A stretch of DNA of 64,000 bases from the human T2T-CHM13v2.0 reference genome, Homo sapiens (GCF_009914755.1 NC_060933.1), one strand, 5' to 3'; positions 28,001 to 34,000 are shown, counted from the first letter of the stretch. Numbers and translations: made by a program. Notes: generated by a model not told the origin, from the sequence alone.

Positions 28001-31000
28001 TGGCTTGTAGAGTTTCTGAGAGATCTGCTGTTAGTCTGATGGGCTTCCCTTTGTGGGTAACCCAGCCTTTCTCTCTGGCTGCCCTTACATTTTTTCCTTC
28101 ATGTCAACCTTAGGGAATCTGACAATTATGTGTCTTGGAGTTGCTCTTCTCGAGGAGTATCTTTGTGGTGTTCTCTGTATTTCCTGAATTTGAATGTTGG
28201 CCTGCCTTGCTAGGTTAGGGAAGTTCTCCTGGATAATATCCTGAAGAGTGTTTTCCAACTTAGTTCCATTCTCCCTGTCACTTTTCAGGTACACCATTCA
28301 AACGTAGATTTGGTCTTTTCACATAGTCCCATATTTCTTGGAGGCTTTGTTCATTTCTTTTTACTCTTTTTTCTCTAAACTTCTCTTCTTGCTTTATTTC
28401 GTTAATTTGATCTTCAGTCACTGATACCCTTTCTTCCACTTGATCAAATTGGCTACTGAAGCTTGTGCATGTGTTACGTAGTTCTCATGCCATGGTTTTC
28501 AGCTCCATCAGGTCATTTAAGGTCTTCTCTACACTCTTTATTCTAATTAGCCATTCGTCTAATCTTTTTTCAAGGTTTTTAGCTTCCTTTCAATGGGTTC
28601 AAACATCATCCTTTAGCTTGAAGAAGTTTGTTATTACTGACCTTCTGAAGCCTACTTCTGTCAGCTCATCAGAGTCATTCTCCATCCAGCTTTGTTCTGT
28701 TGCTGGTGAGAAGCTGCCATCCTTTGGAGGAGAAGAGGCGCTCGGTTTTTAGAATTTTCAGCTTTTCTGCTGTGGTTTCTCCCCATCTTTGTGGTTTTAT
28801 CTACCTTTGGCCTTTGGTCTTTGGTCTACCTCCAGATGGGGTTTTGGTGTGGATGTCCTTTTTGTTGATGTTAAGGCTATTCCTTTCTGTTTGTTAGTTT
28901 TCCTTCTAACAGTCAGGTCCCTCAGCTGCTGGTCTGTTGGAGTTTGCTAGAGGTCCACTCCAGACCCTGTTTGCCTCGGTATCACAAGTAGAGGCTGCAG
29001 AACAGCAAATATTGCTGCCTAATCCTTCCTCTGGAAGCTTCTTCCCAGAGGGGCACCCGCCTGTATGATGTGTCAGTTGGCCCCTACTGGGAGGTGTCTC
29101 CCAGTTAGGCTACACGGGGGTCAGGGACCCACTTGAGGAGGCAGTCTGTCCGTTCTCTGAGCTCAAACACTGTGCTGGGAGAACCACTGCTCTCTTCAGA
29201 GCTGTCCTACAGGGACGTTTGAGTCTGCAGAAGTTTCTGCTGCCTTTTGTTCAGCTATGCCCTGCTCCTAAAGGTGGAGTCTACATGTAGAGGCAGAGGT
29301 CTTGCTGAGCTGCGGTGGGCTCCGCCCAGTTCGAGCTTCCTGGCTGCTGTGTTTACCTACTCAAGCCTCAGCAATGGTGAACGCCCCTCCCCCTGCCAGG
29401 CTGCTGCCTCCAAGGTCTATCTCAGACTGCTACACTAGCAGTGAGCAAGGCTCTGTGAGCATGGGACCTGCTGAGCCAGGTGTGGGATATGATCTCCTGG
29501 TGTGCTGTTTGCTAAGACCATTGGAAAAGCACAGTATTTGGGTGAGAGTGTCCTGTTTTTCCAGGTACTGTCTTCTGTGAATGTACGGCTTCCCTTGGCT
29601 AGGAAAGGGAAATCCCCCGACGCCTTGCATTTCCTGGGTGAGGCGATGCCCTGCCCTGCTTCGGGTCGCCCTCCATGGGCTGCACCCACTGTCCAATCAG
29701 TGCCAATGAGATAAACCAGGTACCTCAGTTGGAAATGCAGAAATCACCCGTCGTCTGCGTCGATCACGCTGGGAGCTGCAGACCAAGCTGTTCCTATTTG
29801 GCCATCTCGGAACGGGATTCAATTTTATATATATTTTTATACAGATTTTTTTTCCTGAACCATTTGGAAATCAGTTGTAGACATCATGCTCCTTTGCTTC
29901 TAAATATTTCAGTATGTATTTCCTATGAACAAGGACATTTTCTAACATAAACACAGAATAATTATCAAATTTAGGAAATTCAGTATTTTATCAGACTTCA
30001 TGTTTGCCAGTCTGCTGAGCTTTAAAGGACTTCTTTCCATCTTTCTATTGTGAAGATGTTTACAGTTACAAGAAAGTTGAACAAATAGTTTGGTGAACAT
30101 CTGTGAACCTCTTGGATTCAATAAATATTTTGATTTATTTATTTTCTCTTTCTCATAGACACATACTTTTTTCCTTTGCTCATTAGAAAGTTGTAGATAT
30201 CATAACATCATCCCTTCAACACACATTTTTTTAAGAGCATTTTCCTGCATCACTACGATATCATTATTACACCTAAGAAAAATGACGGTAATTCCCTAAT
30301 GTCCTCTAATATCATTATTATTTTTTTTTTTTTTTGAGATGGAGTCTTGCTCTGTCACCAGGCTGGGAATGCAGTGGCATGATCTTCGCTCACTGCAACC
30401 TCCGCCTCCCAGGTTCAAGTGATTCCGCTGCCTCAGCCTCCTAAGTAGCTGGGACTACAGGCGTGTGCCACCACGCCTGGCTAATTTTTTTGTGTGTGTG
30501 TTTTGGTAGAGATAGGTTTCACCATGTTGGCCAGGATGGTCTCAATCTCCTGACTTCGTGATCCACCCGCCTTGGCCTCCCAAAGTGCTGGGATTACAGG
30601 CATGAGCCACTGTACCCGGCCCTAAGGTCCTCTAATATCTGAACCATATTCAGATTTTCTTGATTGTCCCAAGAATGTGTGTGTGTGTGCACATGCGTGT
30701 GTGAAATCCAGGCTGGTATTCTGTAGATTGAACCACGTTCTGGGTTTGACTGATTGTTTCCTCATGGTGTGTTTAACTTGTATCTCTATGTTCTATGTAA
30801 AATAGTATCTTAAGTTAACTGCATTTTCCCCTGGTTACTGGAGAGGCTGATCACCTTTCATTTGCTGTTCAAGTTTCCTCTTGAGTGAATTCCCTATTCT
30901 ATTTTTTGTTGAACTGTCTCTGCCTTTTCTTAAAGATTTGTAGGAATTCTTTACATATTCTGGATAATAATCTTTGGTTGGTTATATGTAGTATCTATAT

Positions 31001-34000
31001 TTTAAACAAGCAGCCCAAATGATTGAATTGCCAAGTGGTTTTTGGACAATTCTTTTGTAGAAGTTCTCATCGTAGAATCCTCCTCTTTAATCTGTAATAG
31101 TTTGATCCCAAGTAAATAGATGAAAGAGATAAGGTTTAATCACAAAACACAAATGGACTAAAATGAATCAGAACCATGGTATGCTAATAAATATGTACTT
31201 ATATTCTTGTTAGCACTCATTTAAGGTACTCTTATCATCCTTAATATTAGAGAGTGCCGGTCCCATTTTGTTCTTCTGATAAATGAACATGCTATGGTTT
31301 AATAGAGAGAGTATGGGCTTTGGAGTCGGAGATCTACATTTGTATGCTGACTATCCTTTTTCTAGCTACATAGCCCTGTGCAATTTACTTAGATATTCAT
31401 TCTACAATTCCTCATCTGTAAAACCGCAAGTTGCCTTATACAGTTATTGTGAAGATACAATGAAATAATGAATATGAAAACATTTTGTCCAACATCAGAT
31501 GAAAAATAAGCATTAAATCTTATCCTACTCTTTTTTTCCTTCCTTTCTTCCTCCTTATGTTTTTAGACTCATAAGTATCACAGAACTGGTCCCTTTGAAA
31601 AACAATATGTTGGGAGCTTACTGACTTTCTTGATTACATTTAGCCAGGGTTTTGTTTTCCAACCAGGATATGCACAACCTGAGGCTTCGTCATATTGCTA
31701 CTGAAAACTTTGTGGCAGGCATCAGTAGCTGGCCAGCATTTGGTTTACAGTGCTCAAGTTACTTATAATGCCTTGCAAATGCTTAAGCAGCACAGTGAGG
31801 GTTCCATAGTTAAACCCACTGAATCTTTCTAGGAGCTTGCAGAGCTAGAAAGTGCCCTCCAAGAGCAGCATGAGGTGAATGCATCTTTGCAGCAGACCCA
31901 GGGAGATCTCAGTGCCTATGAAGCTGAGCTAGAGGCTCGGCTAAACCTAAGGGATGCTGAAGCCAACCAGCTCAAGGAAGAGTTGGAAAAAGTAACAAGA
32001 CTTACCCAGGTAAGTAGGAGCATGAAGCCAACTGCAAACTAAGGACCCTGTGCCTTAAGATATCATCCTTCTTTTATTTATGTCTTAATTTAAAATTAAG
32101 CGTTTTTTCATACAATATATATGGAGTGATGGGAAAGGCAGAATTTTGGAGTCAGACATTGTGAGTGCTAATAACTACCCCTGTGTGAACACGGGCAAAT
32201 CAGTTCATAGCTCTGAGCCTCCCAGCCTTTTCCTCCTGTGTAAAATGGCTTATGGGGAAGATAAATGAGATAATGGACATGAAAGCACCTGACAGTTGAT
32301 ACTCAATAAATGCTAGTTTTTCCTTCTTAGAACAGGTTTAAGGACTTTTTTTTTTGAGACAGAGTCTTGCTCTGTTGCTAGGCTGGAGTACAGTGGCATG
32401 ATGACGGCTCACTGCAACCTCCGCCTCCTGGGTTCAAGTGATTTTCCTGCCTCAGCCTCCTGAGTAGCTGGGACTACAGGTGCGCGCCACCATGCCTGGC
32501 CAATTTTTTGTATGTTAGTAGAGATGGGGTTTCACCATGTTGGTCAGGCTGGTCTACAAACTCCCGACCTCAGGCGATCCACCCACCTCAGCCTCCCAAA
32601 GTGCTGGGATTACAGGCATGGGCCACCGTGCCTGGCCGAGACCTCTTTTAGGTTGATGATAAGTTGTAGTTTGCTGTCTCCTTTTAGGGTTGGTTGAAAG
32701 ATCCACTAGTTTAAATTATACTTGCAAGTTACAGAAAACATATCCAATAAATATTTATTGATTGGCCATTGAGGGCCAGGTACTGTGGATTCTCTAGGGA
32801 AAGCACAGACATGGTCACCATCCTGTGGAGCTGACAGATCTCTGATTGGTAAACTTTAGTCCAGCAAGTGAAACAGGTATGGAAGAAAGAAAGGGACAGG
32901 ATTCTTTGGCCAAGGAGGAAGTAGTCAGGGAAGACCACCCTACAGAAATGATGTTTCAGCTGATGGCTGATGGATGAGTAGGATTTGGCCACGCAGAGGG
33001 GACAGGGTGAAAGGAGTAAAGGTAAGGTATTTGTATTCTAGGCAGAGAGGTGAGGAGAGAGAGCATATAGTACATTTGAAGTGCTGAACGTATGCCTCCA
33101 GGATGCCAGGAGCAGGGAGAGGAGTGAGGAAAGAGAATGAGAGGTAAAGGCAGAGAGGCAGGCAGAGGCCAGTTGTAATATATTCTTTATCAGATTAAAA
33201 ATACAATTTATTAGCCAGATGAGCTGCATCTTCTTTCAGGAAGCCCACCTCAACCTTTCCTTTCTGCCTGCTGAAAATCTGGGTTCAGGACTCTACTTTG
33301 GTTTTCCTATAACCTGTGCACAGTAAAGGTATTTATCATGCATATGATGATCATCTGTTTAGATGCTCCTAGATGATCTGTTTGTTTTACCCCAGCTAGA
33401 CTCAGAGCTCAGTGAATGCCCAAATTGTATCTGTTTGTTTCTGCTTTTTCTGTGCCTGGCATATGAGAAGCGTCAATATGTGCCTATTTGATGAAAATGA
33501 AATAAATAAGATATTTTGAATCTCAGGAATGCATGTAAAAATAATTCATATGGTTAGAAAAGGAACTAGAAATATATCTGGTTTATTATAGTAATTATGT
33601 ATATTTCTTTACTTATGAGATATCAGATCATCACTTGACAGTTGTCAGGATTGTATTTCTCGAGTACCGAGTTTTGTAGAAGTATAGTTGACAAGATCAG
33701 AGTCTCAGAAATCAGGAGGTTTTAGGAAAACAATTAAAATAACAGTAAATATTTTAAAATAATAATAAATAAAATTTCTAGATGGCATTTTCCTTAATAA
33801 ATTCTCCTCTTTTCAAGCCAGACTGTACTAGCTTGAAATACACTGTCCTTTGTACTTTGATTGGCTTTTATTTTCTTCTCATAAGTCTTGACAAAATTAT
33901 TTTAAGAGCCTGGCCTTTTCACCAATTCACTTGGTATTGAAAGGGACATTCCCCCTCCCTCAGCACCAAGACTGCCAGGATTGGTCTTCAAACCACACAT

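What the first reader, a model, noticed from the sequence alone, without database searches (positions are those of the whole stretch)
29374..32009. Intact L1 ORF0 with an extra phase-0 donor predicts an in-frame ORF0-centriolin fusion from the L1 antisense promoter
Seen: ORF1 and ORF2 of this antisense L1 are broken, yet ORF0 (29374-29580, gcaATGG, 68 aa) is open and points into downstream CNTRL exons. The two usual ORF0 donors are present: CAG|GTGTGG after 29479 (phase 1) and CAG|GTACTG after 29564 (phase 2). A third donor, TGG|GTGAGA after 29541, falls after codon 56 (phase 0), which matches the next CNTRL acceptor at 31833. Established: the L1 antisense promoter drives chimeric host transcripts, and ORF0 can splice to neighbouring exons. 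Inference: a 56-aa ORF0 head joined to centriolin from ELAELES onward, lacking the whole N-terminal part. The phase-2 donor would be in frame with exon 37408 and the phase-1 donor with exon 42135. As I recall, L1HS has GTGGGA rather than GTGAGA at this site.
Basis: partly seen in the sequence, partly recalled or inferred. Interest (0 to 1): 0.8.

Follow-up and report, generated by a model that had tools for sequence, protein, structure and literature searches.

The report
Old L1 relic in CNTRL intron
An old, dead L1 retrotransposon lying backwards in a centriolin intron keeps a short open reading frame that could in principle splice in frame onto the gene, but nothing found shows that it does, so it is ordinary.

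Summary
The sequence observation is correct. The 68-codon ORF0 at 29374-29580, the three GT sites after 29479, 29541 and 29564, their phases 1, 0 and 2, and the phase-0 start of CNTRL exon 31833 all check out. The element is a full-length, fixed L1PA6 at 23683-29821 on the minus strand, with 10-bp target-site duplications and broken ORF1 and ORF2. It is listed in a published table of L1s that carry an antisense promoter.

None of its features is unusual. An ATG-started ORF0 of 60 or more codons is present in 22 of 29 nearest relatives and 26 of 30 young copies. The GTGAGA site occurs at 31 places in the genome, against 1963 places for GTGGGA. It scores mid-range as a donor. The donor-like sites cover all three phases, so some in-frame pairing was almost certain.

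No transcript evidence was found. CNTRL and this L1 are absent from six L1/TE-chimera supplement sets and from RefSeq's listed exons. The fusion remains an untested arithmetic possibility, with odds of about 4%. Interest is low.

The parts
23683..29821 (-). Full-length, decayed L1PA6 retrotransposon in a CNTRL intron, antisense to the gene
   Evidence: The L1 3' end is read and the 5' end. The 401-nt 5'UTR query gave 5939 first-look candidates in the same genome, the best other copies being 85-87% identical. Pinson 2022 Table S1 has a row hg19 chr9:123889934-123896066, minus strand, L1PA6, 6.4% divergence, model positions 2-6153. I matched that row to this element through a recalled hg19 start of CNTRL, which was about 180 nt off.
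23673..23682 (.). Target-site duplication, 3' side of the L1 (ATTTTATATA)
   Evidence: Identical 10-mers at both ends
29822..29831 (.). Target-site duplication, 5' side of the L1 (ATTTTATATA)
   Evidence: Identical 10-mers at both ends
29374..29580 (+). ORF0 of the L1: antisense-strand ORF of 68 codons, with its ATG at L1 nt 448
   Evidence: Its peptide aligns with the ORF0 peptides of 59 other copies.
29477..29485 (+). Donor-like site CAG|GTGTGG, phase 1 (first usual ORF0 donor)
   Evidence: PWM 9.64. GT in 30 of 30 young copies but only 7 of 29 nearest relatives, 17 of which have GC. Splicing to 31833 gives a stop at codon 48.
29497..29505 (+).
   Evidence: PWM 7.18. GT in 27 of 29 old and 30 of 30 young copies. 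It is also in frame with exon 31833.
29539..29547 (+). The 'third donor' TGG|GTGAGA, phase 0, L1 nt 281
   Evidence: PWM 7.47; 14 of 30 native CNTRL donors score lower; 79 of 3559 decoy GTs score as high or higher. GTGAGA in 2 of 29 relatives and 0 of 30 young copies. 31 places in the genome against 1963 for the GTGGGA form.
29562..29570 (+). Donor-like site CAG|GTACTG, phase 2 (second usual ORF0 donor)
   Evidence: PWM 5.19. GT in 27 of 29 old and 30 of 30 young copies. Splicing to 31833 gives a stop at codon 68.
29574..29581 (+). 8-nt insertion relative to most relatives; it brings the TGA that ends ORF0 at codon 68
   Evidence: Alignment. Shared only with L006 and L025 among the 59 other copies aligned.
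29635..29643 (+). Best-conserved donor-like site TGG|GTGAGG, downstream of the ORF0 stop (L1 nt 185)
   Evidence: PWM 8.52. GTGAGG in 25 of 29 old and 29 of 30 young copies.
29311..29316 (+). RUNX-like core TGCGGT in the antisense-promoter region
   Evidence: Kaer 2011 places a RUNX3 site needed for antisense-promoter activity at L1 nt 508-526 on the opposite strand (passage). At the aligned place, young copies have TGTGGT in 27 of 30, and 7 of 29 relatives have TGCGGT like the window. That both forms fit the RUNX consensus is recalled, not tested.
31833..32009 (+). Next CNTRL coding exon downstream (phase 0 start, ELAELES...), the proposed acceptor exon
   Evidence: Annotation supplied with the finding; frame verified; tag|G acceptor read.

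Best explanation
This is an ordinary fixed L1PA6 insertion, about 6% diverged from its family model. It lies antisense in a CNTRL intron and its own coding frames are dead. The short antisense ORF0 is still open simply because it is short, as in most sister copies. Its stop comes from an 8-nt insertion found in few relatives. That pattern looks like CpG decay and is my inference. The A of GTGAGA is a sporadic variant seen at about 30 other L1 copies. The element therefore has the sequence potential for antisense-promoter transcripts that read towards CNTRL exon 31833. An in-frame ORF0-centriolin product is only one of several possible splice outcomes. No transcript evidence for any of them was found. 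Most likely the locus contributes nothing regular to CNTRL expression.
For: - Identity and age. Target-site duplications and both L1 ends are present. The published table calls it L1PA6 at 6.4% divergence. It is 85-88% identical to its nearest copies and about 75% to young copies. It has 10 CpG in 401 nt, against a mean of 24.6 in young copies. ORF1 and ORF2 are in pieces.
- ORF0 openness is the norm. 22 of 29 relatives and 26 of 30 young copies have an ATG and 60 or more open codons (my recount treats rows without a stop in the extract as open).
- The donor variant is recurrent. It occurs at 31 places in the genome, against 1963 for the GTGGGA form, and in 2 of 29 relatives.
- Donor strength is middling. 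14 of 30 native donors score lower and 2.2% of decoy GTs score as high. The competing sites after 29479 and 29637 score higher.
- No transcript was found. CNTRL/CEP110 is absent from the supplements. This L1's coordinates are absent from Pinson Table S2, although the element is in Table S1. No held paper pairs centriolin with 'antisense promoter', or CNTRL with L1PA6.
- Base rates are low. 57 of about 3200 ORF0 loci were seen fused. 13.5-20.6% of such L1s gave any chimera, and 2.9% of those were spliced at the 5' end.
Against: - The antisense promoter is reported to be conserved and active in L1PA1-L1PA6 (passages), so this subfamily is within the active range.
- A RUNX-like core is kept at the expected place.
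- The ORF0 ATG has a good context, and only two tiny upstream ORFs lie within the 274 nt before it.
- GTGAGA is a better donor than the young-type GTGGGA.
- The out-of-frame products would carry early stops, so an in-frame isoform could be relatively enriched. This is inference.
- The catalogues checked cover ESTs, brain and glioma, some cancers and drug-treated lines. They do not cover iPSC, testis or early embryo. The Denli 2015 list of 57 fusions could not be read.
- Reads from an antisense-promoter transcript running the same way as CNTRL pre-mRNA are hard to tell apart from the host transcript.
Confidence: 0.78

Rival explanations
1. The antisense promoter of this L1PA6 fires in some hypomethylated contexts. 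Its transcripts are unspliced and short, or use the stronger or better-conserved donors after 29479 or 29637. They would then give non-coding or out-of-frame RNA, with at most a free-standing 68-aa ORF0 peptide.
For: L1PA1-PA7 elements gave chimeras at 13.5-20.6% of loci in 11 brain/glioma samples. Most were unspliced, and some started at the '+200' region, which here lies beyond the ORF0 stop. The site after 29479 scores 9.64 and the site after 29637 scores 8.52, against 7.47 for 29541. GTGAGG after 29637 is the most conserved donor-like site, in 25 of 29 and 29 of 30 copies. AATAAA signals lie at 30120 and 31186, before the exon.
Against: This L1 is not among the 1571 chimeras of Pinson Table S2, nor in the EST catalogue.
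Confidence: 0.14
2. Antisense-promoter transcripts start upstream of 29374, splice from the GTGAGA donor after 29541 to exon 31833, and are translated into a 56-aa ORF0 head fused to N-terminally truncated centriolin.
For: The frame stays open through all 1273 downstream in-window codons. The ATG context is good. The donor is improved over the young-type hexamer and ranks mid-range among native donors. ORF0-exon fusions exist as a class (passages).
Against: No transcript appears in any catalogue checked or in the RefSeq exon list supplied. The base rate is about 2%. Several competing donors exist, two of them scoring higher. The in-frame match is expected by chance, because the candidate donors cover all phases.
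Confidence: 0.04
3. Exonization rather than promotion. The donor-like sites in the antisense L1 5'UTR pair with a cryptic upstream acceptor in CNTRL pre-mRNA and give rare cassette or poison exons.
For: Intronic antisense L1s are reported to cause exonization and intron retention (Kaer 2011 title and passages; Criscione passage). Six donor-like sites with PWM above 5 lie between 29479 and 29719.
Against: None of the alternative exons in the RefSeq list supplied lies in 23683-29821. I did not scan for acceptors inside the L1.
Confidence: 0.04

Closest known systems
L1 ORF0 loci of L1HS and L1PA2-8 (Denli et al. 2015, as described in Criscione 2016 and Hancks & Kazazian 2016)
   Same: It is an antisense-strand ORF in the L1 5'UTR, downstream of the antisense-promoter region, with an ATG in a strong context. 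Its peptide can be aligned with the 71-aa ORF0 of young copies. The donor-like sites lie at the two usual places.
   Different: It has 68 rather than 70-71 codons, and it ends at a different place because of an 8-nt insertion. Most nearest relatives read on past 108 codons. The GT at the first donor is in the minority in this lineage, at 7 of 29. The GTGAGA hexamer between the two usual donors is rare.
ORF0-exon fusions and spliced L1 antisense-promoter chimeric transcripts (57 fusions of Denli 2015; 988 EST-supported transcripts of Criscione 2016; LCTs of Pinson 2022)
   Same: The geometry matches: a full-length primate L1 antisense in an intron, ORF0 pointing at downstream coding exons, and a donor whose phase matches the next exon.
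   Different: Those cases are defined by observed transcripts. Here none is known, and the locus is absent from the lists that could be read. The Denli list itself could not be read.

Membership tests
Full-length primate LINE-1 (L1PA6) | L1 5' and 3' ends flanked by target-site duplications | tested here: met
   10-bp ATTTTATATA at 23673-23682 and 29822-29831. The L1 3' end and a short T run on the + strand are read, the 5' end.
Full-length primate LINE-1 (L1PA6) | Homology to the L1 5'UTR, ORF1 and ORF2 over about 6 kb; subfamily assignment | tested here: met
   5939 first-look candidates for the 401-nt 5'UTR query in the same genome. Endonuclease- and reverse-transcriptase-like ORF pieces are recognised by eye; no Pfam run was made. 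The RepeatMasker row in Pinson Table S1 reads L1PA6, positions 2-6153, 6.4% divergence.
L1 ORF0 locus | ATG-started ORF on the antisense strand of the 5'UTR, with a strong initiation context | tested here: met
   29374-29580, gcaATGg; the ATG is at L1 nt 448.
L1 ORF0 locus | Peptide homologous to ORF0 of L1HS-type copies | tested here: met
   Translations from the aligned ATG in 30 young copies (typically 71 aa) and 29 relatives show the same N-terminal and central motifs. No formal score was computed.
L1 ORF0 locus | Two internal splice donor sites | tested here: met
GT is present at both aligned places. These places carry GT in 30 of 30 young copies.
L1 ORF0 locus | Transcription from the antisense promoter and translation | not testable with these tools
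   No expression, CAGE, ribosome-profiling or proteomics data were available.
ORF0-exon fusion / spliced L1 antisense-promoter chimeric transcript | Reading-frame compatibility of an ORF0 donor with a downstream host exon | tested here: met
   29541^31833 and 29499^31833 stay open through 1273 codons; 29479^31833 and 29564^31833 stop at codons 48 and 68.
ORF0-exon fusion / spliced L1 antisense-promoter chimeric transcript | An observed transcript with its start in the L1 antisense promoter and a splice junction to a host exon | tested here: not met
   CNTRL, CEP110 and this L1's coordinates are absent from the supplements of PMC4908685, PMC9396940 (Table S2), PMC10506190, PMC12229592, PMC12999487 and PMC11909889. 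No exon lies in the L1 in the RefSeq list supplied. This tests only published lists, not raw reads.

The most novel reading that the evidence does not exclude
In cells that lose L1 methylation (early embryo, germ line, DNMT-inhibited tumours), the antisense promoter of this particular L1PA6 might start transcripts that use the locus-specific GTGAGA donor after 29541. They would then encode an ORF0(1-56)-centriolin protein. That protein would lack everything encoded upstream of exon 31833, which is at least the 1217 nt of in-window coding sequence. It would be a retrotransposon-driven, N-terminally truncated centrosome/midbody scaffold protein.
Probability: 0.04. Interest if true: 0.4.

Novelty: new member of a known kind. 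Interest (0 to 1): 0.15.

Why it matters
If the fusion were real, it would add one more case to the known class of L1 ORF0-host exon fusions. It would also give an L1-dependent, N-terminally truncated centriolin isoform, which could be relevant to centrosome biology in hypomethylated tumours. As it stands, the locus shows how easily such in-frame predictions arise. Thousands of L1PA 5'UTRs keep an open ORF0 with donor-like sites in all three phases, so frame compatibility alone carries almost no information. One small point may be of general use. In this older lineage, the first ORF0 donor and the first two bases of the third site appear to be CpG-decay products rather than inherited GT sites. 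The longer ORF0 frame of the older copies also differs from the 71-aa L1HS form.

Tried and rejected
- Denli 2015 and Speek 2001 are not held. The list of 57 fusions and the original donor map could therefore not be checked.
- The search for 'CNTRL', 'LINE-1' and 'chimeric transcript' listed one paper. The find tool showed no CNTRL in its main text, so it was dropped.
- MaxEntScan and SpliceAI are not available. I used a position-weight matrix from a recalled donor frequency table and a U1 duplex energy, calibrated on the 30 native CNTRL donors and 3559 decoy GTs of the window. These scores are rough.
- My first count of open ORF0 (6 of 29) was wrong, because rows with no stop inside the extract were counted as closed. 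Recounting from the printed rows gives 22 of 29 old and 26 of 30 young.
- I considered that an open ORF0 in an otherwise dead L1 might mean selection. I rejected this, because openness is the norm among sister copies.
- I considered that GTGAGA might be unique to this locus. It is not.
- I did not scan for cryptic acceptors inside the L1 or in the antisense Alu at 30305-30624.
- I did not determine the residue number of ELAELES in full-length centriolin, because the upstream exons lie outside the window.
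Full report
**1. Checking the observation**

The + strand of 29374-29580 is an ATG-started ORF of 68 codons, with G at -3 and G at +4.
- CAG|GTGTGG after 29479, phase 1;
- TGG|GTGAGA after 29541, phase 0;
- CAG|GTACTG after 29564, phase 2.

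The in-window CNTRL coding parts are open in one frame only: 0 stops, against 108 and 151 in the other two. In that frame exon 31833 starts in phase 0, exon 37408 in phase 2 and exon 42135 in phase 1, as claimed.

Joining 29541 to 31833 in silico keeps the frame open through all 1273 downstream codons held in the window. The same holds for a further phase-0 site after 29499. Joining 29479 or 29564 to 31833 gives stops at codons 48 and 68.

On the minus strand, L1 ORF1 and ORF2 survive only as pieces of 70-247 aa in different frames.

**2. What the element is**

The L1 runs from 23683 to 29821 on the minus strand, between identical 10-bp target-site duplications (ATTTTATATA). On that numbering:
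- the ORF0 ATG is at L1 nt 448;
- the third site is at nt 281;
- the ORF0 stop ends at nt 242;
- a further donor-like site after 29637 is at nt 185.

A 401-nt query from the 5'UTR found 5939 first-look candidates in the same genome. Of these 40 were scored, and the best other copies were 85-87% identical.

Table S1 of Pinson et al. 2022 (PMC9396940; supplement searched) lists hg19 chr9:123889934-123896066, minus strand, L1PA6, 6.4% divergence, model positions 2-6153. It is one of the 9123 L1PA1-8 elements in that table that keep an antisense-promoter region. I matched this row to the window through a recalled hg19 start for CNTRL. The prediction was about 180 nt off at both ends, and the length fits (6133 against 6139 nt).

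The element is therefore a known, annotated, fixed primate L1. It is CpG-poor, with 10 CpG in 401 nt against a mean of 24.6 in 30 young copies.

**3. Is the open ORF0 remarkable?**

No. I compared two sets of copies:
- 29 nearest relatives (L002-L030);
- 30 young copies (L031-L060). These are the first 30 of 856 genome matches to a 22-base primer for L1RP ORF0 printed in PMC7746726.

Reading from the aligned ATG, 22 of 29 relatives and 26 of 30 young copies have an ATG and at least 60 open codons. The script's own tally miscounted rows with no stop in the extract, so these figures are my recount from its printed rows.

Most relatives read on past 108 codons. In the window, an 8-nt insertion at 29574-29581 brings the TGA. 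Only L006 and L025 share it. The 68-codon length therefore resembles the 71-aa young ORF0 by coincidence. 'Intact' applies to the reading frame from the ATG, not to the lineage's own ORF0 length.

**4. The donors**

Counts in the two sets of copies:

| Site | Nearest relatives (n = 29) | Young copies (n = 30) |
|---|---|---|
| First donor (after 29479) | GT in 7; GC in 17 | GT in 30 |
| Third site (after 29541) | GT in 14; GC in 12; GTGAGA in 2 (L011, L015) | GTGGGA in 29; GTGAGA in 0 |
| Second usual donor (after 29564) | GT in 27 | GT in 30 |
| Site after 29499 | GT in 27 | GT in 30 |
| Site after 29637 | GTGAGG in 25 | GTGAGG in 29 |

The mix of CG, CA and TG forms at the first and third sites in the relatives suggests that both GTs in the window are CpG-decay products. 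This is my inference from per-copy counts.

Genome-wide, the 18-base motif with GTGAGA occurs at 31 places (control 1). The GTGGGA form occurs at 1963 places (control 1). The variant is rare, at about 1.6%, but it is recurrent.

I scored donors with a weight matrix from a recalled donor table, so the values are rough:

| Site | PWM score | Native CNTRL donors scoring lower (of 30) | Decoy GTs scoring as high or higher (of 3559) |
|---|---|---|---|
| After 29479 | 9.64 | 21 | 19 |
| After 29637 | 8.52 | not ranked | not ranked |
| After 29541 | 7.47 | 14 | 79 |
| After 29499 | 7.18 | not ranked | not ranked |
| After 29564 | 5.19 | 9 | 271 |

The young-type hexamer GTGGGA in the context of the third site scores 5.49. 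The third site is thus a plausible, middling donor. It is better than its young-type form, but it is neither the strongest nor the best conserved in this 5'UTR. Because the candidate sites cover phases 0, 1 and 2, an in-frame match with the next exon was close to certain beforehand.

**5. Promoter potential**

Passages read in Kaer 2011 (PMC3192792) and Pinson 2022 say the following:
- the antisense promoter lies at L1 nt +400 to +600 and needs a RUNX3 site at nt 508-526 on the opposite strand;
- it is conserved in L1PA1-PA6;
- starts cluster at '+450' and '+200'.

In the window, the aligned RUNX-like core is TGCGGT at 29311-29316. Young copies have TGTGGT in 27 of 30. That both forms fit the RUNX consensus is recalled, not tested.

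A '+200' start would fall beyond the ORF0 stop. It could use only the donors after 29637 or 29719.

Upstream of the ORF0 ATG there are two tiny upstream ORFs, at 29257 (4 codons) and 29285 (1 codon). AATAAA signals lie at 30120 and 31186, and an antisense Alu lies at 30305-30624, between the L1 and the exon.

**6. Transcript evidence**

None was found.
- Criscione 2016 (PMC4908685): 988 EST-supported antisense-promoter transcripts. Its 10 supplementary files hold no CNTRL or CEP110; the two 'CEP1' hits were CEP152.
- Pinson 2022: 1571 chimeras from 3 brain and 8 glioma samples. The table lists L1 coordinates and gene names. It holds neither CNTRL nor this L1's coordinates.
- CNTRL is also absent from the held supplements of:
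  - a pan-cancer study of antisense-promoter genes, PMC10506190 (8 files);
  - a study of epigenetic-drug-treated cancer lines, PMC12229592 (1 file);
  - a long-read TE-gene chimera atlas, PMC12999487 (2 files);
  - a long-read lung adenocarcinoma study, PMC11909889 (1 file).
- Full-text searches for 'centriolin' with 'antisense promoter', and for 'CNTRL' with 'L1PA6', found 0 papers.
- The RefSeq exon list supplied with the finding has no exon inside the L1.

Base rates are low. 57 of about 3200 genic ORF0 loci were seen fused (Criscione's account of Denli 2015). 13.5-20.6% of such L1s gave any chimera, and 2.9% of those chimeras were spliced at the 5' end.

There are limits to this evidence. 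Denli 2015 and Speek 2001 could not be read. No raw reads could be queried. iPSC, testis and embryo are not covered by the lists seen. Further supplementary files of these papers may exist that were not held as text.

**7. Mechanism and verdict**

- Shown here: the anatomy, the phases, the variant frequencies and the absence from published lists.
- Inferred: the CpG-decay origin of two GT sites, and the relative use of the donors.

The best-supported reading (0.78) is an ordinary L1PA6 relic with a typical ORF0 remnant and no regular contribution to CNTRL expression. Rivals:
- occasional antisense-promoter transcripts that stay unspliced or use other donors (0.14);
- exonization of the antisense L1 into CNTRL mRNA (0.04).

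The kind of event proposed is already well known. This locus would at most be a new, unvalidated member of that kind.

Noticed in passing
window 29581-29709 (+) and donor-like site after 29637: A second ATG-started ORF of 42 codons begins directly after the ORF0 stop, in the same frame. Its first 19 codons end at the conserved TGG|GTGAGG site after 29637, which is also phase 0. That junction to exon 31833 would therefore also be in frame.
   Followed up: partly
L002-L030 (nearest L1 relatives), ORF0 region: In most nearest relatives of this L1 the ORF0 frame stays open for more than 108 codons to the end of the 400-nt extract. That is longer than the 71 codons typical of young copies. How far it runs was not followed.
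   Followed up: partly
L006 (G000:C3:34121413-34124812) and L025 (G000:C1:76805303-76808698): These two copies share the 8-nt insertion seen at window 29574-29581. L006 also has a 68-codon ORF0. This suggests a small sub-lineage rather than a mutation after insertion.
   Followed up: partly
L009 and L013 (G000:C2:110540814-110544204 and C2:110838996-110842386): These are two L1 copies about 300 kb apart on the same contig. Their 108-aa ORF0 translations are nearly identical, differing at one residue. They are probably part of a segmental duplication.
   Followed up: no
window 30305-30624: An Alu-like element starts with a T run on the + strand, so it lies antisense to CNTRL, between the L1 and exon 31833. 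Elements in this orientation can offer cryptic acceptors (recalled). It was not scanned (and the masked list supplied).
   Followed up: no
window 28592-29821: The supplied list of NCBI-masked stretches stops at 28592. The L1 5'UTR, including ORF0, continues to 29821 and has thousands of relatives in the genome. The 5'UTR part of this repeat therefore seems to be unmasked in that file.
   Followed up: no
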